Position numbers and translations under genes: made by a program
Notes under the pieces: generated by a model
Database searches by the model: none
What the model was told of the DNA's origin: nothing
What the model saw: the letters and a program-made list of their open reading frames with translations, nothing else
Assembly (NCBI GenBank): GCA_038060895.1
Contig: JBBTCT010000012.1
Location: 1-41,688, forward strand
Direction: 5' to 3'
Source of the DNA: Planctomycetota bacterium
GTDB lineage: Bacteria > Planctomycetota > MHYJ01 > WSZJ01
DNA: 41,688 nt
Shown: one piece after another, positions 1,095 to 15,158 of the stretch
Layout of the letters: every line of letters begins with the position of its first letter
Numbering within the stretch: position 1 is the first letter of the stretch

Positions 1095-4000
1095 ATGCGA
1101 CACCTGAACTGGATTCTGCGTTTCACGGCCGTCCTTTCGCTGGGCCTGCTGATTGCCGTGGGATGCGGCACTTCCTCCGAGGGCCCTCACGGATTGAGCC
1201 AGCCGCCGGGCCCCGCGAAATTCGAAGTCGTGCTGGACGCGCCACTGCAGGCAGTCGCCGGAGCAGAGGTCATTCTGCGCGCGCGCGCGATCGCGCCACG
1301 GGCGGATGGCGGCTTCGACCCGGTCGTGGGGGCATCCGTGGAAGCGGCGCTTTCCGCAAAGGCGCCAGTCGGTCATGCGGCGCGCGGTCTGACCGCGGAA
1401 GATGGATGGACGACGCTTCGAATTGCTGTACCCGCCGACGCGCCGAATCCATGCAAGCTCGGCGTGAGCGTGGAAGCTCGGGGCGAGCGTCGCGAGGCAG
1501 CGTGGCTTCTGATCGTCAGGCGCGACGTGCGCCTGTTGCTGGCGACGGACAAACCGGTCTACCAGCCGGGCCAGACCGTCCGCCTGCGCGCGATGGCACT
1601 TCGCGCCACGGACCTGCGGCCGATGACGGGGGAAGCGACGTTTGAGGCTCGGGACGGGCGGGGAAACCTCGTCATGCGCGAGCCGGTGGTGCTCACGGCG
1701 TACGGGACGGCCTCCTGTGAGCTGCCGATCGCGGAGGCGGTCAACGAGGGCGAGTGGAAGGTCTCGGTGACGGCGGGAGGGGCGACCGCGCACCGGCTTG
1801 TCGGTGTCGCCCGCTACGTGCTTCCGAAATTCAAGGTGGAGGTGAAGACAGAACGAGAAGCCTACCGGCCCGGAGAAACTGTCAAGGGCACGGTCTCGGC
1901 AGTTTATCCGTACGGCGAGCCGGTGGCGAATGCGACGGTAGCGTTGAAGTGGAACCGTTGGGGTGTCGCGCCCGGAGGAGCGTCGAAGACGACGACGGCC
2001 GACGGGACGGCGAGTTTCGAAGTGGCGCTGCCCGTGGAGGCGGATGGCCGGCTGTCGATTGAAGCGACGGTGCGCGATGCGGCCGGGCAGGAGCAGCGGG
2101 CGGCGGCTGTCAGAACGGTGTCGGGAGCGGGGATTTCTCTCGCGCTGGTCGTGCCGGAAGAGCGGCTGGTGCCCGGCGTGGAGAACGAGTTCTTCGTCGT
2201 GGCGCGGACGGCCGCAGGAACGCCGGCCAGGTGCGACGTGACGTTCGCCGGCGAACGGCGCGCGACCGATGATCACGGCGTCGCCCGGTTCCTTTTCTCT
2301 CCGAAGCGAGGCGTAGCCCCGCTGACATGGATGACAGTCTCCGCAGAGGACACTTCGGGAAACAAGGGCAAGCTCGTCGACGTCGTGACGCACCACCCGT
2401 CGCCCTTTGCGATCCTCGCCCGGACGGCCTCGCCGACGGTTCGTCCCGGCGCATCGGTCGAGATCCACATTTCCACCGCGCGTGCCGGCGGGACCGCGAC
2501 GGCCGAGCTGCTGCTCGACGGTGCGCCGCTGTCGACGGCCGTGGTCTCGCTCGCGACCGGTGTGGCCACCGCGACCCTTCCCTGCCCCGGCACGGCTTCG
2601 GGCATCCTTGAAATCCGCGCCACGAGATGGACTGACGGCGGCGACCGGCAGACCAGCCGGCGGCTGGTCCTCGTCGAGTCTGCGGCGGCGCTCCGCGTCC
2701 AGATCGGCGCTCCCCGGGAGACCCTGCGCCCTGGCGCCGACGCTTCCGTCGAGTTCCGTACGCTCGGCCCCGACGGGCACGGCGTGCCGTCCGCGCTCGG
2801 AGTCTCGATCGTGGACGAGAGCGTCCTGCAGCTCGGCGAAGCAGACGAGACTCCGCTAGAGGCACAGTTGCGACTGACAGCACTTCAGCGCGAGGCCGGG
2901 GCGGCGGGATCTCTCGTCGAAAAGGCCCGCACGGCCGTTTCCACGGCGGCGGTCCTCTCGGCGATGGTTCCTGGGTCCAGCCGGACACGAGTGTCTTCGG
3001 TGAAGCGTGCGTGGCGGGATAAGCCTGAAAAGCTGACGCGGCTTCTCAAGCTGCAGGGGACGGCGGAGTCGTGGGACAGCCCATGGGTCGTGCGAGACGG
3101 CGACGGCTATCGATTCACGGAGGATTACGTCCAGCGATTGGGAGATTCCGGCGATGCGGAAGTCACGCGCGACGCGCTGGTCGATCCATGGGGTCGGCCG
3201 ATGACGGCGGCGATGCTCGAGGAGCTCGGCGCTCCCTTCGACGCGGCGTCGCGACTTTCGTTCGCATACGCCGACATGGCGGCCGTGGTCGGAAAGGAGA
3301 TGGACGCGTGGGTCGAGCGTCACGATGTTGTTCTGAAGGGCAGGTTCGTTCCGGGCGCCGTCCGCGCGATCGCCAACGCCGGCGTGTTCAAAAACCACGG
3401 GAACGATCCACTCGGCGAAGAGTGGACGCTCGATCGCCTCGCGGAGGTCGACCCTGCGCTCTCCGTGGAAAACCTGGAGCGATTGACGATCTACCGGCGG
3501 CGCCGGGCCGCCCGCGAGGCGCTCGTCGCGAAGTTCCCGAAAGACGGCCTGGTGCCCGATGGAAGAGGCGGTTGGCGCTTCCGCGACGGCCTCGGCCGGG
3601 AGCTTGACCTGAACCTGAAGCGCCCGGACGGGAGCGAGGACACGCTGGAAAGTCTGGCCTCGACCGATCCGGGTTTCTTCCCGGGTGGGATAGCGTCGCA
3701 GGCAGATCGCATCGGCCGCGAACGGTTCTACAGGATTCTCCTCGCCGCGATTGGCGACGGCGCCCTGAGGCCCGTCCCCGGTCCCGACGGCCTCATGCTC
3801 CCCGCAGATCTGGCGGGAGAACTCGCCCGGGCCGGACGACTCAAGCCTGAAGAAGCGCGCGACCGATTCGGCGTTGCCTACGACCCTGCCATCCTTGCCA
3901 AGTCGGAAGTCCGCTTCCTTCCGGCCCTCCTTGTTTCCGCCGCGGTCTCGGAGCGGATCAGACAGATTGACGCGAAGCACTGCGAGGTGCTGCATCAGAA

Positions 4001-6872
4001 GTTGAATCTGGACGAGTCGCCGCAGGATGCGGTGGAGCAACTCGTGAAACAAGGTGCGCTGGAGGTCTGCGCGACGCTTGACCCGTGGGGACACGCGTTC
4101 CGGCTGGTCCACGGGAAGAACCTGCGGAGAGCACTGAGTTGCGCCCTGCTGAAACAATCCGACGCGGTCTCGGCGGGGCCGGACGGCGCCTTCGGCACGG
4201 CGGACGACCTGGTGTGGGACGGGATTCTGCCCGAGACATACCCGGGCGTAGAGGAGTTCGTCGCGCCTACCGACCTCCGCCCTTTGCCGAGGCCCGCGCG
4301 CTGGGGTGGGCCGCCCGCGTGGATCGTGCAAGGCTCGGCGATCGCATACTCCTCGGGCCTCTTCGAAGAAGAGTCGCCCGGACGACGAGAGCGTTTCAGA
4401 AGCATGCGCGAAGACATGCTCGAGTCTGAAATTCCCTACGACGCCGTTTCCCAGACCCGGGTCGTGGAATTCCCCGACGCAGAGACTTGGGTCGAAGGTC
4501 TCCAGCACCGTTCGGAAATCGATAAATTGCGTCATGAAATGGCGCTCAGGGAAGGGGAGACCCGGGAGAGAGGCAATCCCGTCGGGCCCGAGACCGGTTT
4601 CTACGGTCTGTTCGGCCCGGACAACTCGCGCGAGTTGCGCGGCATCGTCGAGCACCTTGTCGGCGGCAACGAGCTCGACGATTTCACGGTGCCTCCCAGC
4701 CCCGGAAGCGGCGGCTTTTTCGATGGGAGCGTGGAAATCGCCCAGAACGCCGCGATCGCCGACGTCATCGGCGAGTCAGGACTGTTCACCAATGATCAGC
4801 ACGCCCGCCGCGCCGTCCGCCTCCGCCGCCTGTTCCCCGAACTCCTCGCTTGGGAGCCCCTTCTCATCACGGACGACGCCGGCCTCGCACGCCTTCCGGT
4901 GCGCATTGCCGACTCGATCACCACGTGGCGCGTTCGGGCGCGGGGCAACACGCAGAACGGTCTCGTTGGCGAAGGCGAAGGGTCGATATGCGTCTTCCAG
5001 CCGTTCTTCGCCGACCTCGACCTGCCGCCGACGGTGACGCAGGGCGACGAAGTCGCAGTGCCGGCCATGGCTTGGAACTACTCGGATTCGGAGAAGGACG
5101 TCGAACTGCGCGTCGAAGCGGGAGAAGGCGTCGCGCTCCTCGACGCGTCGGCGCAGTCGATCCGCCTCGCCCCTGGCGCGGCCGGATCGGTGCGGTTCCG
5201 CGTGCGCTTCGACCGCCCCGGCCGGGCTTCGTTCACGGTGCGGGCCTCTGCCGGCGCCGCGGCGGACGCGACCCTTCGGGAAACCGACGTCGTCCCTGAC
5301 GGATGGCTCGTGGAGGACGCTATCAACGCGCGGCTCGACAAGCCGCTGCGCACGACGATCGCGATTCCGGCCGATGCTCTCCCCGGCTCCGTCACGGCCC
5401 GGGCGCGCTTCATGCCCGGCGCCATCTCCCAGGTCCTCGAGGGACTCCAGGGACTCGTCCGTCTGCCGCACGGCTGATTCGAGCAGTCGGGCGCCGTCAC
5501 GTGGCCGAACGTGAAGGTGCTCCAGTCGCTGCGGCGGGGCCGCGGCATCAGTGCGAAGCTCGAGGCGGAAGCGCGCCACAACGTAGACACGGGGTATCAG
5601 ATGGCGCTTTCGTTCGAAGGACCGAACGGCGGTTATGCGTGGTACTCCACCCACGTCGAGGACGCGGCGCTGACGGCGATGGCGCTGGAGATGTACGTGG
5701 ACATCGCCCAGGTCCGGCCCGTCGACCCCGCGGCAACCGCGCGGGCGCAGCGCTTCCTGACCGGGTACCTCGCCGATGGGCAGGCGCCGAACGCGGTGCT
5801 GTGCTACGCGGTCCGCGCGCTGACGGACAGCGGGCTCAAGCGAGAGGAGCTGGCGCGGTATGTCGAAGAGATCGTGAAGCGCTTCGGTTCACTGACCGAC
5901 GCCTACGACCTCGCTCAAGCGGCCGCGGCGCTCGTCGTCGCCGCGCCGGACGCGGGCGAGACCGCTGCGGTGCTGAAGCGCCTCGAACGGACCGCAGTCT
6001 CCGATCCCGCCACGGGCTTCGCTCATTGGACGACCGATCGCGAGTCCCTCTTCCACGCCTCGGGGGTCACGGCCGAAATCGAGACGACCGGCGTCGCCGC
6101 AACGGCTCTCCTGCGACGCGACCCCGCGAATGCCACCGCCGCGCTCGCGCTGTCGTGGCTCGCTTCGAAGCGCGGCGCGGACGGCACCTGGGGCTCGACA
6201 GCCGCGACCGTAGCGGCCTTATCGGCGTTCATCGCGGCGGATGCGATGGAAACGGGTGCCGACTGTGAAGCGATCGTGCGTCTGAGGGAGGTCGAACTGC
6301 GCGCTTCCCTGCCTGCGAACGACGACGGAGTGACAAGATTCGCTGATTTCAGCGCTCAATGCCCCCTCCGGCCCGGCGAAAACGACGCTTCGATCTCGGC
6401 CACCGGTTCCTGCGCCGCGCTCGCGCAGCTCATCGTCGGGTATCGCCGCCCCTGGGCCACGAGGCCGGCCGCGCCGGAGAAACGACGCTTGCGGCTCACG
6501 GCGAAGGACGACCGCCAGGCCCTGAAGATCGGCGACACGCTGGTGCGCGACGTGACGGTGTCGTTCGACGAGAAGCGCCCCGCGTTTATGACATGCGTCC
6601 GCGTCGGTGTACCGCCGGGATTTGTTCCCGACATCATGGCGCTCGAGGAACTGGTCCGGTCGAAGACGGTCGATCGATTCGAAACCGGCGCTCGATTCGT
6701 GACGCTCTACCTCGGGGAGACCGAGGGCGGGAAATCGGTTTCGTTAAAGGTGCCGATGCGGGCACGGCTTCCGTTCAAGGGACTGGCCCCCGAGTGCATT
6801 GCCTGGGAATACTACGCGCCCGACGGCCGGGACGAGTTCCCGCCTGTGGCGATCGAGGTCACCGCGCCATAA
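1095..6872 (+). CDS. Alpha-2-macroglobulin family lipoprotein (thioester-protein family), 1925 aa if the in-frame TGA at 5475-5477 is read through; candidate selenoprotein
   Basis: Lipobox LLIAVG-C. MG2-type motif TDKPVYQPGQTVRLR and YVLPKFKV. A2M-domain motifs FPELLAWEP, ADSITTWR and VFQPFFADLDLP. Thioester site reads LPHG*FEQ, followed by TED-like GGYAWY...LTAMAL and GTWGSTAATVAAL, and a C-terminal VPPGF...WEYYAP. ORF 5511..6872 is in the same frame, with no other stop. Family call is confident; read-through is inferred. Confidence 0.85.
5478..5522 (+). promoter_or_regulatory. Candidate bacterial SECIS-like hairpin immediately 3' of the in-frame UGA
   Basis: Manual pairing: UCG(5487-5489)/CGA(5506-5508) plus GCC(5493-5495)/GGC(5503-5505) close the loop GUCACGU, with 18 nt between the UGA and the loop. 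Possible outer pairing GAGCA(5481-5485)/UGCUC(5518-5522). Weak and not computed. Confidence 0.3.
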
Positions 6873-8301
6873 GTCGGATCCGCGCCGCGTACCCGCCGCA
6901 GGTCCACTCCGCGCCGGGGAGGATCTTCATTTCTTCCTCCAGCCGCAGGCCATTTCCATCCCGGATCGCGGCGCGCACCAGCGTCTCGTTCTCTTCGTCC
7001 TCGAGGCTGCACGTCGAATAGACGACGCGCCCGCCCGGTTTCGTCACGGCGACGGCGGCGTCGAGGATGCGGCGCTGGACCCGGGCGAGGACGTGGAGAT
7101 CGCGGTCGCGGAGGCGCCAGCGGGCCTCGACACGGCGGGAGAGGACGCCGGTGTTCGAGCAGGGGACGTCGACGAGGACGGCGTCGAAGACGCGGCCGAA
7201 GGGCGGCTGCTTGGCGTCGGCGAGCGCGAGGACTGCGGAGACGCCGAGCCGCTGGAACGATTTCCCCATGCCTTTGACCTTGCCGATTTCGCTGTCCGCG
7301 GCGACGACGCACGCTCCCGTTTCCGCGATCTGCGCCGATTTGCCGCCGGGCGCGGCGCACAGGTCGCCGACCAGTTCCCCCGCCTTGGCCTGCAGCATCG
7401 GCGCCACGCGCTGCGCCGCATCGTCCTGCACCGCGAACCAGCCGTCCCTGAACGACGCCAGCCGCCCGAGCAGGCCCGTGTGCGCCACGTGCAGCCGCTT
7501 CGCATCGACCTCGACTTTTTCCTCGCGCAGCCGCTCTACCAGCTTCTCCCGCGTCGTCTTCAGCGCGTTGACCCGGATCGACATCGGCGGGTGCCCGTTC
7601 CCCGCTTCCATCGCCCCCACCGTCGCCGCCGCCCCGAACTTCGCCATCCATCGCCGCACCAGCCACACCGGGTGCGACATCATCTGCCCCGCGAACGCCG
7701 CCGGGTCCACCCACGGGTCAGGCCAGAGGTCGCGATCCAGAAACGCCCGCCGGCCTCCGGGGATCGGGATGAGCCTGCGGTGCGGCAGGTCGGGCCAGCG
7801 CGCTTCAAGCACGTCCGACAGCGTCCGCCGCCACTGGCTCTCCACTTCGGGCCCGGGCGAAGCGGTCGCCGGCAAAGCATCGCCTTCGATTTTGACGATC
7901 GCCCTCTGAAGCGCCCGGAGCACGCCGGTCGCGAATCCCGCCGCGCGCTTGTCGCGGTGCCGCTTCGCCTGCTCGGCGGCCTCGTCGAGCGCTGCGTAGG
8001 CGGGGATTTTCTCGAGGAAGAGGAGCTGGCAGGCGGCGAGGCGCAGGATCCAGCGCATGCCGGCTTCCATCTTTTCCGTTTCGGTCTTCGAGAACGCGTC
8101 GAGGACTTTGTCGATCGTTCCGCGGTGCCGGATGGTCGCGTAGACCAGCGCGGTCGCGAGCGAGCGGTCCAGCGCCGTGACGCGGTCGTCCTCGAGCGCC
8201 TTCTCGAGCAGGTCCGACGCGTACTCGCGCTCGCTGTCGGAGTCCAGCAGGACGCGCAGCGCGACGGCCCGCGCGCCGAACGGGGACGGAGGCGCACTCA
8301 C
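6859..8301 (-). CDS. rsmB: 16S rRNA m5C967 methyltransferase RsmB/Sun family, with NusB-like N-terminal domain
   Basis: Motifs DLCAAPGGK, DVPCSNTG, YSTCSL, QDDAAQ and SHPVWLV. N-terminal NusB-like helices (ILRLAACQLLFL). Confidence 0.9.
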   Translation of the reverse strand: MSAPPSPFGARAVALRVLLDSDSEREYASDLLEKALEDDRVTALDRSLATALVYATIRHRGTIDKVLDAFSKTETEKMEAGMRWILRLAACQLLFLEKIPAYAALDEAAEQAKRHRDKRAAGFATGVLRALQRAIVKIEGDALPATASPGPEVESQWRRTLSDVLEARWPDLPHRRLIPIPGGRRAFLDRDLWPDPWVDPAAFAGQMMSHPVWLVRRWMAKFGAAATVGAMEAGNGHPPMSIRVNALKTTREKLVERLREEKVEVDAKRLHVAHTGLLGRLASFRDGWFAVQDDAAQRVAPMLQAKAGELVGDLCAAPGGKSAQIAETGACVVAADSEIGKVKGMGKSFQRLGVSAVLALADAKQPPFGRVFDAVLVDVPCSNTGVLSRRVEARWRLRDRDLHVLARVQRRILDAAVAVTKPGGRVVYSTCSLEDEENETLVRAAIRDGNGLRLEEEMKILPGAEWTCGGYAARIRLMAR

Positions 8302-8948
8302 TTACTCTTGCCGCGCTTCTCTCCGCCCTCAACCGCCTTCGGCGGATTCGACGGCCGCACCGGCACCGCGGAGCGGCGCACGTACTTCGCCACCAGGTCG
8401 GTCTCCAGGTTGACGAGGTCGCCCGGTGTCTTGTCGCCGAGCGTCGTCGCGTTGAGCGTGTGCGGGATCACCGTGCACGTGAACGAATGGTCCAGGACAT
8501 CCACGACCGTCAGGCTGATCCCGTTGATGGCGATGGAGCCCTTCGGCGCAATCTCCTGCATCAGTTCCGGCGGCGCGTGGAACGTGTACAGCAGGTCGCC
8601 GCCCCCGCGCTCCACTTTCTCGATGCGCCCGAGGCCGTCGATGTGCCCGGTCACGAAGTGCCCGCCCATGAGGTCGCCGACGCGAAGCGACCGCTCGGCG
8701 TTGATGGCGTTTTCGACCTTTGCGGAGCGGAGCGTCGTCTTCCGGAGAGTTTCCCCTACGACGTCGAACTCGCACGAGCCGTCGTTGCCCGAGACGACCG
8801 TGAGGCAGACGCCGTCGATGGCGATGCTCTCGCCGATCGCGATGCCCTTCATGTTGTCAGGGGGAAGGGCGACGCCGAGGCGGAGGCGCCCGGCGGTCAT
8901 ATCAACCGCGGTGACCATCCCGACGCACTGGACGAGGCCGGTGAACAT
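8298..8948 (-). CDS. ribE: Riboflavin synthase (alpha chain)
   Basis: N-terminal MFTG, SIAIDGVCLTV, GGHFVTGHIDG, KGSIAINGISLTV and VNLETD. Its stop overlaps the rsmB start. Confidence 0.95.
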   Translation of the reverse strand: MFTGLVQCVGMVTAVDMTAGRLRLGVALPPDNMKGIAIGESIAIDGVCLTVVSGNDGSCEFDVVGETLRKTTLRSAKVENAINAERSLRVGDLMGGHFVTGHIDGLGRIEKVERGGGDLLYTFHAPPELMQEIAPKGSIAINGISLTVVDVLDHSFTCTVIPHTLNATTLGDKTPGDLVNLETDLVAKYVRRSAVPVRPSNPPKAVEGGEKRGKSK

Positions 8949-9007
8949 GCCGCGATGTTAGACTTTGATTGTGCCGGCGTCAAAGTGACGGTGTGCGGCA
9001 AAAGCGG

Positions 9008-9175: not shown

Positions 9176-9850
9176 ATGCTCACCCTCGACATCTTGACCC
9201 TCTTCCCCGAAACCTTCGGCGGCTTTCTCGGCACGAGCATTCTCGGCCTCGCCCGCCAGCGCGGCATCGTGGACGTCCGGCTTCACAATCTCCGCGACTT
9301 CTCCGCCGACAAACACCACAAGGTCGACGACCGCCCCTTCGGCGGCGGCCCCGGCATGCTGATCTGCCCCGAGCCGGTGTTCCGTGCGGTCGAGTGGCTC
9401 GAAGCGCAGGGCTTCCAGGGCCGGAAGATCCTGCTCACGCCCGCCGGCCGCACCTTCGACCAGAAGTTCGCGCAGGAACTGTCGGGCGAGAAGCGGATGC
9501 TGCTGCTCTGCGGGCACTACGAGGGGTTCGACCACCGGATTGTGGAAGGAATGAAATGGGAAGAAGTCAGCGTCGGTGACTACGTCCTGTCGGGAGGCGA
9601 GCCTGCGGCGATGGCGATCGTGGACGCGGTCACCCGTCTCCTCCCCGGCGCGCTCGGTGATCCCGACTCGCCGAAGGAAGAATCGTTCTCCGACGGAAAA
9701 ATCGAGTACCCGCAGTACACGCGGCCGCGCGAGTTCCGGGGGATGAGCGTGCCGGACGTGCTGGTTGGCGGGAACCACGCGGAGATCCGGAAGTGGCGGG
9801 AGGAGGAGTCGAAGCGGCGCACCTCGGCTCGCCGGATCCCTGAACGTTGA
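9176..9850 (+). CDS. trmD: tRNA (guanosine37-N1)-methyltransferase
   Basis: DILTLFPE, VDDRPFGGGPGM, CGHYEGFD, SVGDYVLSGGE, EYPQYTRP and GNHAEIRKWR. Confidence 0.97.
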   Translation: MLTLDILTLFPETFGGFLGTSILGLARQRGIVDVRLHNLRDFSADKHHKVDDRPFGGGPGMLICPEPVFRAVEWLEAQGFQGRKILLTPAGRTFDQKFAQELSGEKRMLLLCGHYEGFDHRIVEGMKWEEVSVGDYVLSGGEPAAMAIVDAVTRLLPGALGDPDSPKEESFSDGKIEYPQYTRPREFRGMSVPDVLVGGNHAEIRKWREEESKRRTSARRIPER

Positions 9851-9969
9851 CCCTGATAGGACCCTGTGATAAAGATAGCGCCCCCATTACCCGGGAAGGG
9901 GGCCCGTATCCCGCACGCGGGTTCCCCGAACTTCCGAACCCCTCGGCTTTTCACACCAAAGGAGCAGGA

Positions 9970-12480
<2,511 letters not shown>

Positions 12481-12533
12481 ACTTCGTGGCCGGCCCGAAG
12501 GCGCAGCCCGTTTCATGCCGCAGAGGAGGTTTC

Positions 12534-15154
<2,621 letters not shown>

Positions 15155-15158
<4 letters not shown>

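What the first reader, a model, noticed from the sequence alone, without database searches (positions are those of the whole stretch)
5460..5510. Alpha-2-macroglobulin with an in-frame TGA exactly at the thioester cysteine (G-U-F-E-Q): candidate selenoester protein
Seen: codons 5460-5510 read R-L-P-H-G-[TGA]-F-E-Q-S-G-A-V-T-W-P-N. The frame stays open for 464 more codons, encoding the rest of the thioester domain and the C-terminal domain, to TAA at 6872. There is no obvious RBS before GTG 5511. TGA is an ordinary stop elsewhere in the window (trmD, first hppA, ribE), so the code is not globally reassigned. Established: A2M/complement-C3-type proteins form a reactive thioester between the Cys and Gln of GCxEQ, and UGA aligned to a catalytic Cys is the classic selenoprotein signature. 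Inference: Sec insertion would give a UxEQ selenoester, a more reactive acyl donor, in a surface/periplasmic protease-trap lipoprotein; I know of no described example. Alternatives: Cys insertion by a UCA-anticodon tRNA, regulated partial read-through giving armed and unarmed forms, a nonsense mutation, or a base-call error. A random nonsense change hitting this one codon of ~1900 is unlikely but possible (TGC>TGA). No sel genes are in this window.
Basis: partly seen in the sequence, partly recalled or inferred. Interest (0 to 1): 0.95.

Follow-up and report, generated by a model that had tools for sequence, protein, structure and literature searches.

The report
Selenocysteine at an alpha-2-macroglobulin thioester site
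A large bacterial protease-trap protein carries a selenocysteine codon exactly where its relatives have the cysteine of their reactive thioester, and dozens of related bacteria share this, so nature appears to have built a selenium version of this covalent trap.

Summary
Window 5460-5510 reads R-L-P-H-G-TGA-F-E-Q..., inside one 1925-codon frame (1095-6872) that is a complete alpha-2-macroglobulin (A2M).

The TGA is neither an error nor a private mutation:
- Contigs from two other studies, one from an RNA library, carry it unchanged.
- 51 homologous genes in 31 genomes of the same phylum (record titles: Planctomycetota) have TGA at this column. They are only 28-40% identical to the window's protein.
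- All other homologues examined have TGC/TGT there.

The host genome has selA, selB, tRNA-Sec, and selD and fdhA genes that each hold an in-frame TGA. TGA also ends 6 of 10 other genes checked in the window. selA is present in 30 of the 31 TGA-holding genomes.

In 14 close homologue pairs, the region after the TGA is under purifying selection (dN/dS 0.13-0.41). The 66 nt after the TGA fold more stably than synonymous recodings in TGA genes (mean z -2.1 and -3.0). Cys genes do not show this (-0.45 and -0.42).

Best reading: a genuine selenoprotein family, arisen at least twice within A2Ms. That Sec forms a selenoester with the invariant Gln is inferred, not shown. I found no description of it in the literature I could search.

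The parts
1095..6872 (+). Whole read-through A2M gene: 1925 codons, one in-frame TGA, TAA stop.
1095..1166 (+). N-terminal signal peptide ending in a lipobox-like A-V-G-C (Cys at residue 24). This suggests an exported lipoprotein.
   Evidence: Sequence read by eye. No predictor was run, so this is inference.
1533..1775 (+). MG2 macroglobulin domain (residues 147-227).
   Evidence: PF01835, 2.6e-21.
4848..5111 (+). A2M family domain (residues 1252-1339).
   Evidence: PF00207, 5.3e-16.
5421..6242 (+). Thioester domain (TED), an all-helical region. It spans residues 193-466 of the 650-residue modelled segment.
   Evidence: PF07678, 4.8e-24; helices H193-H466, pLDDT mostly 85-96 but 62-72 around the motif.
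5472..5486 (+). Reactive-site motif G-[TGA]-F-E-Q, at the position of the thioester G-C-x-E-Q.
   Evidence: (G, U/C, E and Q are invariant in 15 of 15 aligned Sec homologues).
5475..5477 (+). TGA read as selenocysteine (residue 1461).
5489..5522 (+). SECIS-like hairpin. It starts 11 nt after the UGA, has 7 + 6 base pairs around a one-base bulge, and has the six-base apical loop GGCCGA (5503-5508).
   Evidence: structure. (z = -3.09 against 200 synonymous recodings, none as stable). (same register as 9 other homologues).
6588..6824 (+). C-terminal A2M receptor-binding (MG8-like) domain, residues 1832-1910. It lies downstream of the TGA.
   Evidence: PF07677, 7.3e-05. domain 3.

Best explanation
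The gene at 1095-6872 encodes one full-length exported alpha-2-macroglobulin of about 200 kDa. UGA 5475-5477 is decoded as selenocysteine by the organism's SelA/SelB/SelD/tRNA-Sec system, helped by the hairpin that begins 11 nt downstream. Sec takes the place of the thioester cysteine in G-C-x-E-Q.

Shown here:
- The TGA is real and conserved at this column in 51 genes of 31 genomes.
- It alternates with Cys codons in homologues.
- It co-occurs with the Sec machinery.
- It is followed by selected RNA structure and by coding sequence under purifying selection.

Inferred:
- In the folded protein the selenolate attacks the side-chain amide of the invariant Gln, three residues on, and gives an internal gamma-glutamyl selenoester.
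- As in A2M and C3, cleavage of the bait region exposes this bond, and a nucleophile on the attacking protease opens it, so the protease becomes covalently tied to the trap.
- A selenoester is a better acyl donor than a thioester (general chemistry, recalled). Capture would therefore be faster or would work under conditions where a thioester is sluggish.

My odds: about 0.85-0.9 that Sec is inserted, and about 0.6-0.65 overall that a selenoester forms.
For: 1. Machinery.
- selA, 541 bits.
- selB, 344 bits summed over two pieces in one frame.
- selD, 364 bits, itself with one in-frame TGA in the context SSCAG-TGA-ASKLGP.
- fdhA, 647 bits, with one TGA.
- tRNA-Sec at G000:C4:13533-13624, 71.7 bits, with an 8-bp acceptor stem, a 5-bp T stem and a long variable arm.

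2. Recurrence.
- In 61 related genomes, the 36 best matches (29-40% identical) all hold a TGA, and so do 4 more distant ones. All 40 have it at the Cys column.
- 11 further genes in 8 genomes of other classes of the phylum also have it there.

3. Sec/Cys pair.
- 28 of 28 other homologues examined in the first set have TGC/TGT.
- So do 70 of the 80 best loci across the species collection and 9 of 9 checked.
- 66 matches in 64 of 201 genomes of a phylum sample centred on an Armatimonadota-titled genome have no internal stop.

4. Co-occurrence with selA.
- selA is above its cut-off in 23 of 23 TGA-holding genomes of the first set and in 7 of 8 of the second. The exception is 59% complete.
- None of the 11 of 61 genomes without selA above the cut-off holds a TGA form.
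- Four Cys-form genomes that are 92-96% complete lack selA.

5. RNA structure in the 66 nt after the codon, against synonymous recodings.
- TGA genes have mean z -2.14 (n=40) and Cys genes -0.45 (n=28).
- In the second sample the values are -2.99 (n=10) and -0.42 (n=70).
- The window's gene has z -3.09, with 0 of 200 recodings as stable.

6. Selection. dN/dS after the TGA is 0.13-0.41 in 14 of 14 close pairs, against 0.08-0.61 before it. In the window's gene, GC3 is 0.83 after the TGA and 0.79 before it.

7. Base call. Contigs of runs X3 and X4 (study P2), X5 (DNA) and X6 (RNA library; both study P3) cover 5475-5477 with no differences.

8. Ester chemistry.
- G, U, E and Q of the motif are invariant in the 15-sequence alignment of Sec forms.
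- The model (pLDDT 82.9, pTM 0.78) puts Sec at the start of a TED helix.
- The model matches native C3, A2ML1, CD109 and A2M with TMq 0.66-0.76, and activated C3b with only 0.32-0.35.
Against: - No protein-level evidence exists. Selenium incorporation, a full-length product and the ester bond are all untested.
- No single hairpin is conserved. RNAalifold finds no consensus structure over 47 sequences. The stems sit in different registers: 16, 10 and 7 of the 51 TGA genes in the three commonest registers.
- Fixed-register pair counts are only moderate. One register gives 62.6% of cells paired against 35-50% when slid. The other gives 59.6% against 29-50% when slid, and three of its five measures, percent paired and the covariation score among them, do not exceed shuffles.
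- With generic dinucleotide shuffles, the 86 nt from the window's TGA onward are not exceptional: z -1.17, and 23 of 200 shuffles fold as well.
- Related genomes are not independent, so the rank-test p-values overstate the case.
- The window's own copy is the most divergent member. It sits on a branch of 0.94, is at best 40% identical to any homologue, and lacks about 20 residues in the TED. No close orthologue was found, so its own dN/dS could not be measured.
- Model confidence is lowest (62-72) exactly around the motif.
- Four of five Cys-form holders from other phyla have selA. Sec users can therefore keep Cys here, and the advantage of Sec is unexplained.
Confidence: 0.8

Rival explanations
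1. Sec is inserted, but no selenoester forms. The selenol instead serves as a redox, metal-binding or disulfide-exchange centre in an A2M scaffold that has changed its job.
For: Almost all known selenoproteins are redox enzymes. A 2022 review says only that Sec occurs in several non-redox proteins whose selenium role is unknown (one passage seen). Model confidence is low around the motif.
Against: The Glu and Gln of G-U-x-E-Q and the following T-S-S-x-T-Y-P-N block are conserved as in Cys forms. A role that does not need the Gln would not predict this. The modelled domain arrangement is that of native thioester proteins.
Confidence: 0.12
2. UGA is read through as another residue. It could be Cys carried by a UCA-anticodon tRNA, or Trp or Gly by near-cognate decoding. 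The protein would then be an ordinary thioester A2M, or an inert one.
For: Aragorn calls a second tRNA with anticodon UCA at G000:C1:472898-472990. Recoding of UGA to Cys by selC-like tRNAs has been described in some bacteria (recalled, not checked in a call).
Against: That second tRNA has a mismatched acceptor stem and is not among the listed Rfam tRNA-Sec hits. A canonical tRNA-Sec, SelA, SelB and SelD are all present. The TGA forms track selA. A SECIS-like hairpin is selected. If Cys were the product, TGC would do the job without any machinery.
Confidence: 0.05
3. The main product is the 1460-residue protein that ends at the UGA. This would be a TED-less macroglobulin, with read-through only a minor or regulatory event, for example one gated by selenium supply.
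For: Sec decoding competes with termination in bacteria (general knowledge, recalled). A truncated protein would still hold the MG domains.
Against: The 464 codons after the TGA are under purifying selection in the family. They keep a coding GC3 and encode an intact TED and C-terminal domain. Both forms may coexist, and in that case this reading does not conflict with the best explanation.
Confidence: 0.03
4. The TGA is a nonsense mutation (pseudogene) or a sequencing or assembly error.
For: A single TGC-to-TGA change would give this codon.
Against: The TGA is identical in contigs from two studies other than the possible source. It is at the same column in 51 genes of 31 genomes. The downstream frame is open and constrained.
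Confidence: 0.005

Closest known systems
Eukaryotic alpha-2-macroglobulin / A2ML1 / CD109 / complement C3 (thioester-containing proteins; PDB 7von, 6tav, 7q1y, 8s3o, 8cem)
   Same: Same domain order (MG domains, A2M domain, TED, C-terminal receptor-binding domain). These are the best sequence matches in the PDB (human A2M, E 1.6e-41), and the reactive-site motifs align residue for residue. The model superposes on the native forms with TMq 0.67-0.76.
   Different: The codon for the thioester Cys is TGA. The protein is bacterial and has a lipoprotein-like signal peptide. It is about 450 residues longer than human A2M, and residues ~340-1250 have no Pfam match apart from one weak sub-threshold hit.
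Bacterial A2M of the E. coli YfhM (ECAM) / Salmonella type (PDB 4ziq, 5a42, 4u48)
   Same: It is a periplasmic lipoprotein protease trap with a C-x-E-Q thioester. The host genome also holds one such Cys form (G000:C9, L080, motif YPYGCVEQTMSRF). A small separate group of four TGA forms lies inside this ECAM-like branch.
   Different: It is only a distant relative of the window's protein (E 5.5e-11, against 1.6e-41 for human A2M). The linkage to pbpC that I recall for this type is not seen here. The neighbours are rsmB, ribE and two H+-PPases.
Bacterial selenoproteins with Sec/Cys homologue pairs and an in-frame SECIS (for example FdhA and SelD)
   Same: An in-frame UGA aligns with Cys in homologues. 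A stem-loop with a G in a small apical loop lies just downstream, a feature named in PMC1088965 (passages seen). The full sel gene set is present. The same genome has TGA-containing selD and fdhA.
   Different: The replaced Cys is not a redox or metal-ligand residue. It is the sulfur of a protein-internal thioester, so the expected role of Se is as the leaving group of an acyl donor. The A2M family is not mentioned in the main text of the 2022 and 2026 reviews of prokaryotic selenoproteomes or of the deep-Sep paper.

Membership tests
Alpha-2-macroglobulin / thioester-containing protein family | Multi-domain architecture: MG domains, A2M domain, TED, C-terminal receptor-binding domain. | tested here: met
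   MG2, MG3, MG4, A2M_BRD, A2M, TED_complement and A2M_recep are all above the Pfam cut-offs; three aligned stretches to human A2M.
Alpha-2-macroglobulin / thioester-containing protein family | Reactive-site motif G-C-x-E-Q in the TED. | tested here: inconclusive
   G, E and Q are present and invariant, but the Cys codon is TGA. The feature is met only if Sec is accepted as standing in for Cys.
Alpha-2-macroglobulin / thioester-containing protein family | Fold and domain packing of the native (unactivated) form. | tested here: met
   pLDDT 82.9. TMq is 0.67-0.76 to native C3, A2ML1, CD109 and A2M, and 0.32-0.35 to C3b.
Alpha-2-macroglobulin / thioester-containing protein family | An internal (thio)ester bond that reacts with nucleophiles after bait cleavage. 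| not testable with these tools
   This needs mass spectrometry, methylamine reactivity or a solved structure.
Bacterial selenoproteins | In-frame UGA aligned with Cys in homologues (Sec/Cys pair). | tested here: met
   51 TGA genes, against 28 + 70 + 9 TGC/TGT genes at the same column.
Bacterial selenoproteins | The UGA is conserved in homologues of other Sec-using organisms and is absent where the machinery is absent. | tested here: met
   30 of 31 TGA holders have selA, and the exception is 59% complete. 0 of 11 genomes without selA above cut-off in the first set hold a TGA form.
Bacterial selenoproteins | SECIS stem-loop directly after the UGA, with a small apical loop that contains G. | tested here: inconclusive
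   A hairpin is present at 5489-5522 with loop GGCCGA. Stability exceeds synonymous recodings. There is no single conserved structure and only moderate pair statistics. No bSECIS search program was available.
Bacterial selenoproteins | selA, selB, selD and tRNA-Sec in the genome. | tested here: met
Bacterial selenoproteins | Selenium in the protein. | not testable with these tools
   This needs 75Se labelling or mass spectrometry.
E. coli YfhM/ECAM-type bacterial A2M | Gene adjacent to pbpC (a feature recalled from the literature, not read here). | tested here: not met
   the neighbours are rsmB (6859-8301, minus strand), ribE and two H+-PPases. No penicillin-binding protein domain was found among the ORFs scanned.

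The most novel reading that the evidence does not exclude
Planctomycete A2Ms carry a genetically encoded protein selenoester, a gamma-glutamyl-selenocysteine bond in place of the thioester of A2M and complement C3. This use of Sec arose at least twice within the family. It would be the first selenoprotein in which selenium acts as the leaving group of a covalent-capture warhead rather than as a redox or metal-ligand centre. It would also be the first natural stable selenoester in a protein.
Probability: 0.6. Interest if true: 0.93.

Novelty: new variant of a known kind. Interest (0 to 1): 0.88.

Why it matters
Known selenoproteins use Sec almost only for redox catalysis or metal ligation. Thioester proteins (A2M, C3, C4, insect TEPs) are a textbook case of a protein-internal reactive bond.

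A natural Sec-for-Cys swap at that bond would be a new chemical use of the 21st amino acid. It would also be a natural experiment on why thioester proteins are tuned as they are. The Sec and Cys forms coexist in the same genomes and can be compared directly for how the ester forms, how long it lasts and how fast it captures proteases.

It bears on genome annotation too. By my inference, gene callers that treat TGA as a stop would split these roughly 1600-2000-residue genes in two, so the family would be under-annotated in Planctomycetota. Chemists already use selenoesters for fast peptide ligation (titles and abstracts listed). A natural enzyme-free system that makes one inside a folded protein could be of practical interest.

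Tried and rejected
- Consensus SECIS. RNAalifold on the gapless 47-sequence alignment gave no structure. Subgroups use different registers, so I dropped the idea of one conserved SECIS and built no covariance model.
- Fixed-register pair counts gave only moderate support. I report them as such.
- Generic dinucleotide shuffling of the 86 nt from the window's TGA onward gave z -1.17. In a 66% GC gene this control is weak, so I replaced it with synonymous-codon recoding.
- The search for homologous proteins with the 464 residues after the TGA, limited to 255-812 residues, returned nothing at E <= 1e-20 among 8000 scored candidates. Six-frame searches find many such relatives, so I treat this as a failure of the word prefilter. 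It is not evidence of absence. I did not repeat it.
- The ORF 6799-8961 (+) that overlaps the gene's end has no Pfam match. The opposite strand encodes rsmB, so I take the ORF as spurious.
- The second aragorn 'tRNA-SeC' on contig C1 looks unreliable.
- The idea that internal TAG or TAA stops in four phylum-level hits marked another recoding was rejected. They are the genes' terminal stops, and the motif holds Cys.
- The sample centred on a Verrucomicrobiota-titled genome had only 1 of 301 genomes with a match, so it says little.
- A CAGE-complex preprint that mentions both macroglobulin and Planctomycetes proved unrelated.
- Literature. Searches found no paper that describes Sec in an A2M or thioester protein. 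For one search only the top 25 of 57 hits were listed.
- Term look-ups in the main texts of PMC13188914, PMC12013277 and PMC9312934 likewise found nothing.
Examples are S9 of PMC4807772 and Table S2 of the deep-Sep paper.
- I did not run a metagenome scan, complex prediction, the protein-atlas search or the search of protein representatives.
Full report
**The observation**

Window 5460-5510 reads R-L-P-H-G-TGA-F-E-Q-S-G-A-V-T-W-P-N, with the TGA at 5475-5477. The frame is open from ATG 1095 to this TGA (1460 codons) and for 464 more codons to TAA at 6870-6872. It is the only in-frame TGA in 1925 codons, and the gene has 15 ordinary Cys codons.

Read through, the protein matches Pfam MG2, MG3, MG4, A2M_BRD, A2M, TED_complement and A2M_recep, all above their cut-offs. 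Its best relatives among solved structures are human alpha-2-macroglobulin (7von and 6tav, E 1.6e-41), CD109 and A2ML1. E. coli YfhM and Salmonella A2M are much more distant (E 5.5e-11). The alignment to human A2M runs straight across the TGA and places it on the Cys of the human thioester motif.

The N-terminus looks like a lipoprotein signal peptide ending in A-V-G-C. I read this by eye, so it is an inference.

TGA is a normal stop in this organism. It ends 6 of 10 Pfam-supported ORFs checked in the window: rsmB, ribE, the first H+-PPase, DegT, a PMT gene and a histidine kinase.

**Is the base real?**

The window is the first 41,688 bases of contig C12 of a 5.4-Mb assembly of 47 contigs. The assembly is 86.5% complete with 1.5% contamination.

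Besides two runs that may be the source of the assembly, four other runs hold the region. I laid their contigs on 4800-6300. The following cover 5475-5477 with no differing letters:
- X3 (5239-5600) and X4 (5309-5618), both from study P2;
- X5 (DNA, 5114-5539), from study P3;
- X6 (metatranscriptome library, 5243-5593), from study P3.

X6 also has a contig at 6073-6300, downstream of the TGA. An RNA library can contain DNA, so this is a hint of expression and no more. A base-call error or a private mutation is excluded.

**Can the organism decode Sec?**

The genome encodes:
- selA (541 bits);
- selB (311 bits, or 344 with its C-terminal piece);
- selD (364 bits).

The selD frame itself has one TGA, in the context SSCAG-TGA-ASKLGP, followed by a hairpin. 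A formate dehydrogenase alpha subunit (647 bits, just under the family's cut-off of 666 bits) also has one in-frame TGA.

A tRNA at G000:C4:13533-13624 scores 71.7 bits against Rfam tRNA-Sec. It has the 8-bp acceptor stem, 5-bp T stem and long variable arm expected of a bacterial tRNA-Sec. A second aragorn 'tRNA-SeC' on contig C1 has a poor acceptor stem, and I regard it as doubtful.

**Recurrence in relatives**

I ran a six-frame search of the 60 nearest genomes plus the window's own, using residues 1201-1925. It gave matches in 39 of 61 genomes.
- The 36 best matches (29-40% identical to the query, 208-1595 bits) each hold a TGA. One holds two.
- Four weaker matches hold one as well.

I fetched all 40, plus 30 matches without a TGA. 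The 30 were the 10 that arrived as loci and 20 that I picked from the roughly 95 others.
- In all 40, the TGA is the codon at the thioester Cys column, in G-TGA-[F/M/T]-E-Q.
- Of the 30 without a TGA, 28 have TGC or TGT there. In the other two (L061, L074) I found no motif.

The host genome has a second TGA copy (C21:63917-65968) and one Cys form (C9).

A sample of 401 genomes of the phylum gave matches at E <= 1e-70 in 37 genomes, with only two candidates scored per genome.
- The 11 new TGA-holding matches come from 8 genomes outside the window's class. All have the TGA at the same column.
- Four hits flagged with a TAG or TAA carry Cys, and those stops are simply the gene ends.

In total, 51 genes in 31 genomes have the TGA at this column.

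A pattern scan of the species-genome collection returned 80 loci: 10 with TGA and 70 with TGC/TGT. One of its two search patterns required a Cys codon, so it was biased toward Cys forms.
- The 10 TGA loci have titles naming Planctomycetota, Planctomycetia, Planctomycetales, Gemmatales or Gemmataceae.
- The Cys loci come from many phyla by title, among them Hydrogenedentota, Verrucomicrobiota, Armatimonadota, Acidobacteriota, Zixibacteria and WOR-3.
- Some of the 10 are probably the same genes as in the handle-based sets, so I do not add them to the count.

Two further phylum samples found no TGA form:
- Centred on an Armatimonadota-titled genome, 64 of 201 genomes have the family at 36-54% identity to a planctomycete Sec form. 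None of the 66 matches has an internal stop.
- Centred on a Verrucomicrobiota-titled genome, 1 of 301 genomes had a match, without a stop.

In what I searched, the TGA form is therefore confined to one phylum. I infer that phylum to be Planctomycetota, from the titles of the nearest named loci.

**Co-occurrence with the machinery**

- selA is above its cut-off in 50 of 61 genomes of the first set, and in all 23 that hold a TGA form.
- None of the 11 genomes without selA above the cut-off holds a TGA form. Three of them have Cys forms or matches without a stop.
- Of the 8 further TGA holders, 7 have selA. The one without is 59% complete.
- I checked 7 phylum genomes whose scored matches are Cys forms. 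Four of them, 92-96% complete, have no selA match, and three have selA.
- Four of five Cys-form holders from other phyla also have selA.

The machinery is thus needed for the TGA form, but having it does not make an A2M a selenoprotein.

**Phylogeny**

I built a quick maximum-likelihood tree of the 68 TED-region sequences (IQ-TREE, LG+G4, 465 columns, SH-aLRT support only, midpoint root).
- 35 Sec forms fall in one group (support 97).
- The window's protein sits on a long separate branch (0.94) beside that group and a six-member Cys group. One further Cys sequence (L033) sits unresolved at the same fork.
- 4 Sec forms (L037, L058, L059, L060) make a group (support 99) inside the distant ECAM-like branch, whose other members have Y-P-Y-G-C-x-E-Q-T-M-S-R-F.
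- The fewest Cys/Sec changes on the tree is 3, and well-supported branches force 2.

I did not run a clade test or root the tree, so I claim only 'at least two switches'.

The window's copy is the family's outlier. It is at best 40% identical to any homologue, lacks about 20 residues in the TED, and has S-G-A where the others have T-S-S. No close orthologue turned up in the seven same-genus genomes.

**RNA structure after the UGA**

In the window a hairpin spans 5489-5522. It starts 11 nt after the UGA, has stems of 7 and 6 bp, and has the apical loop GGCCGA. [quoted passage not shown]

Generic dinucleotide shuffles do not single this hairpin out (z -1.17). The fair control for a coding hairpin is to recode the same peptide with the gene's own codon usage.
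- By that control the window's 66 nt after the TGA have z -3.09, and 0 of 200 recodings are as stable.
- The 40 TGA genes of the first set average z -2.14, and the 28 Cys genes average -0.45.
- In the second sample, 10 TGA genes average -2.99 and 70 Cys genes -0.42. Only 7% of the Cys genes fall below -2.
- The rank tests give p of about 1e-8 and 1e-6. Relatives are not independent and the two samples overlap, so these values overstate the case.

There is no one conserved structure.
- RNAalifold finds none in the gapless alignment of 47 sequences.
- Over all 51 TGA genes, the best helices fall in different registers: 16 sequences in one, 10 including the window in another, 7 in a third, and the rest scattered.
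- Counting pairs for the commonest register over the 47-sequence alignment gives 62.6% of cells paired, against 35-50% for slid controls. It also gives 19 double-change cells, a count reached by 0 of 500 shuffles.
- A second register gives 59.6% paired against 29-50% for slid controls, and three of its five measures, percent paired and the covariation score among them, do not exceed the shuffles.

The picture is of a hairpin that is kept but rebuilt from lineage to lineage. It is always centred on the T-Y-P-N-V codons.

**Selection downstream**

In 14 pairs of close homologues, dN/dS after the TGA is 0.13-0.41, and before it 0.08-0.61 (Nei-Gojobori). The part after the TGA is therefore translated in the family.

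For the window's own copy no close relative exists to measure this. Its downstream frame is open for 464 codons, has GC3 of 0.83 against 0.79 upstream, and encodes a TED and a C-terminal domain that Pfam recognises.

**Structure**

I ran an AlphaFold2 model of 650 residues around the site, with the 15-sequence alignment and Cys standing in for Sec.
- It has mean pLDDT 82.9 and pTM 0.78. Confidence is 62-72 around the motif and 85-96 over most of the helical TED.
- The Sec position sits at the start of a helix.
- Foldseek ranks native C3, A2ML1, CD109, A2M and insect TEP1 first, with TMq 0.66-0.76. Activated forms match poorly: C3b 0.32-0.35 and induced A2M 0.45.

The domains are therefore predicted to pack as in proteins whose thioester is still intact and shielded.

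**Mechanism**

Shown: a conserved, machinery-linked UGA, followed by a hairpin, at the thioester Cys column of an otherwise intact A2M.

Inferred:
- Sec is inserted co-translationally.
- The lipoprotein is exported.
- On folding, the selenolate attacks the amide of the Gln three residues on and forms a selenoester.
- Bait cleavage exposes the bond, and a protease amine opens it, which ties the protease covalently to the trap.

The invariance of G, E and Q in all aligned Sec forms argues that the ester chemistry is kept. That selenoesters are faster acyl donors than thioesters is general chemistry that I recall. Only titles and abstracts of ligation papers were seen.

Why Sec is favoured here, while Sec-using bacteria of other phyla keep Cys, I cannot say.

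**Comparison and novelty**

The protein is an A2M-family member by architecture and fold. Its Cys feature is met only through Sec. It is not of the pbpC-linked ECAM type, since its neighbours are rsmB, ribE and two H+-PPases. It meets the usual computational criteria for a bacterial selenoprotein, apart from the lack of a single consensus SECIS.

- NCBIfam has no model that matches it (0 families).
- Nine full-text searches found no description of Sec in an A2M or any thioester protein.
- Look-ups in the main text of two reviews of prokaryotic selenoproteomes (2022, 2026) and of the deep-Sep paper found none either.
- One paper notes that Gemmata obscuriglobus and Isosphaera pallida have full Sec gene sets (PMC4807772, passages seen).
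'Not found' is therefore limited to what I could search.

**Verdict**

This is a real and widespread feature: a family of selenocysteine-containing alpha-2-macroglobulins in Planctomycetota. I rate it a new variant of known kinds, since both A2M and bacterial Sec recoding are known. Its predicted chemistry, a protein selenoester, has no precedent that I know of or could find.

Noticed in passing
G000:C21:63917-65968 (locus L047): A second TGA-containing A2M in the same genome. It belongs to a different paralogue group that is shared by all seven same-genus genomes searched. The genome also has one Cys-type ECAM-like A2M at C9:210351-211817 (L080).
   Followed up: partly
Loci L037, L058, L059, L060 (G019, G023, G048, G054): A separate small group of TGA forms inside the ECAM-like A2M branch, with motif Y-P-[YH]-G-TGA-[MT]-E-Q. 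Two of the four (L037, L058) have a short hairpin made by the A-R-F-V-P codons, and L059 a weaker one at the same place. Their synonymous-recoding z-scores are weaker (+0.08 to -2.08).
   Followed up: partly
G000:C22:195134-199316: About 35 tRNA genes are packed into roughly 4.2 kb. One of them aragorn could not name and gave a four-base anticodon call.
   Followed up: no
G000:C22:273515-273721: Two adjacent, unusually long tRNAs: Trp(cca) of 94 nt and Pro(tgg) of 97 nt. Both have 8-bp acceptor stems and long variable arms. By recall they resemble the 'allo-tRNAs' described in the literature.
   Followed up: no
G000:C1:472898-472990: Aragorn calls a second tRNA-SeC(tca). It has 75% GC, a mismatched 7-bp acceptor stem, and is not among the listed Rfam tRNA-Sec hits. 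It is probably not a working tRNA-Sec.
   Followed up: partly
window 9847-12480 and 12486-15158: Two tandem genes for membrane H+-pyrophosphatases (Pfam H_PPase, 585 and 765 bits), six bases apart on the + strand.
   Followed up: no
window 1095-6872, residues ~340-1250: About 900 residues between the N-terminal MG domains and the A2M domain have no Pfam match above threshold. The protein is roughly 450 residues longer than human A2M.
   Followed up: no
G012:C7:41940-44000 and 51619-53748; G010:C34:6620-8659 and 11387-13423: A2M paralogues lie in tandem: two TGA forms about 8 kb apart in one genome, and two Cys forms about 3 kb apart in another. Some genomes give up to 13 A2M-like matches (G010), which points to a large expansion of the family in this phylum.
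   Followed up: no
window 6799-8961 (+): A 720-codon ORF that overlaps the end of the A2M gene has no Pfam match. It lies antisense to rsmB (6859-8301, minus strand) and ribE (8298-8948, minus strand). It is most likely a spurious ORF of a GC-rich genome.
   Followed up: yes
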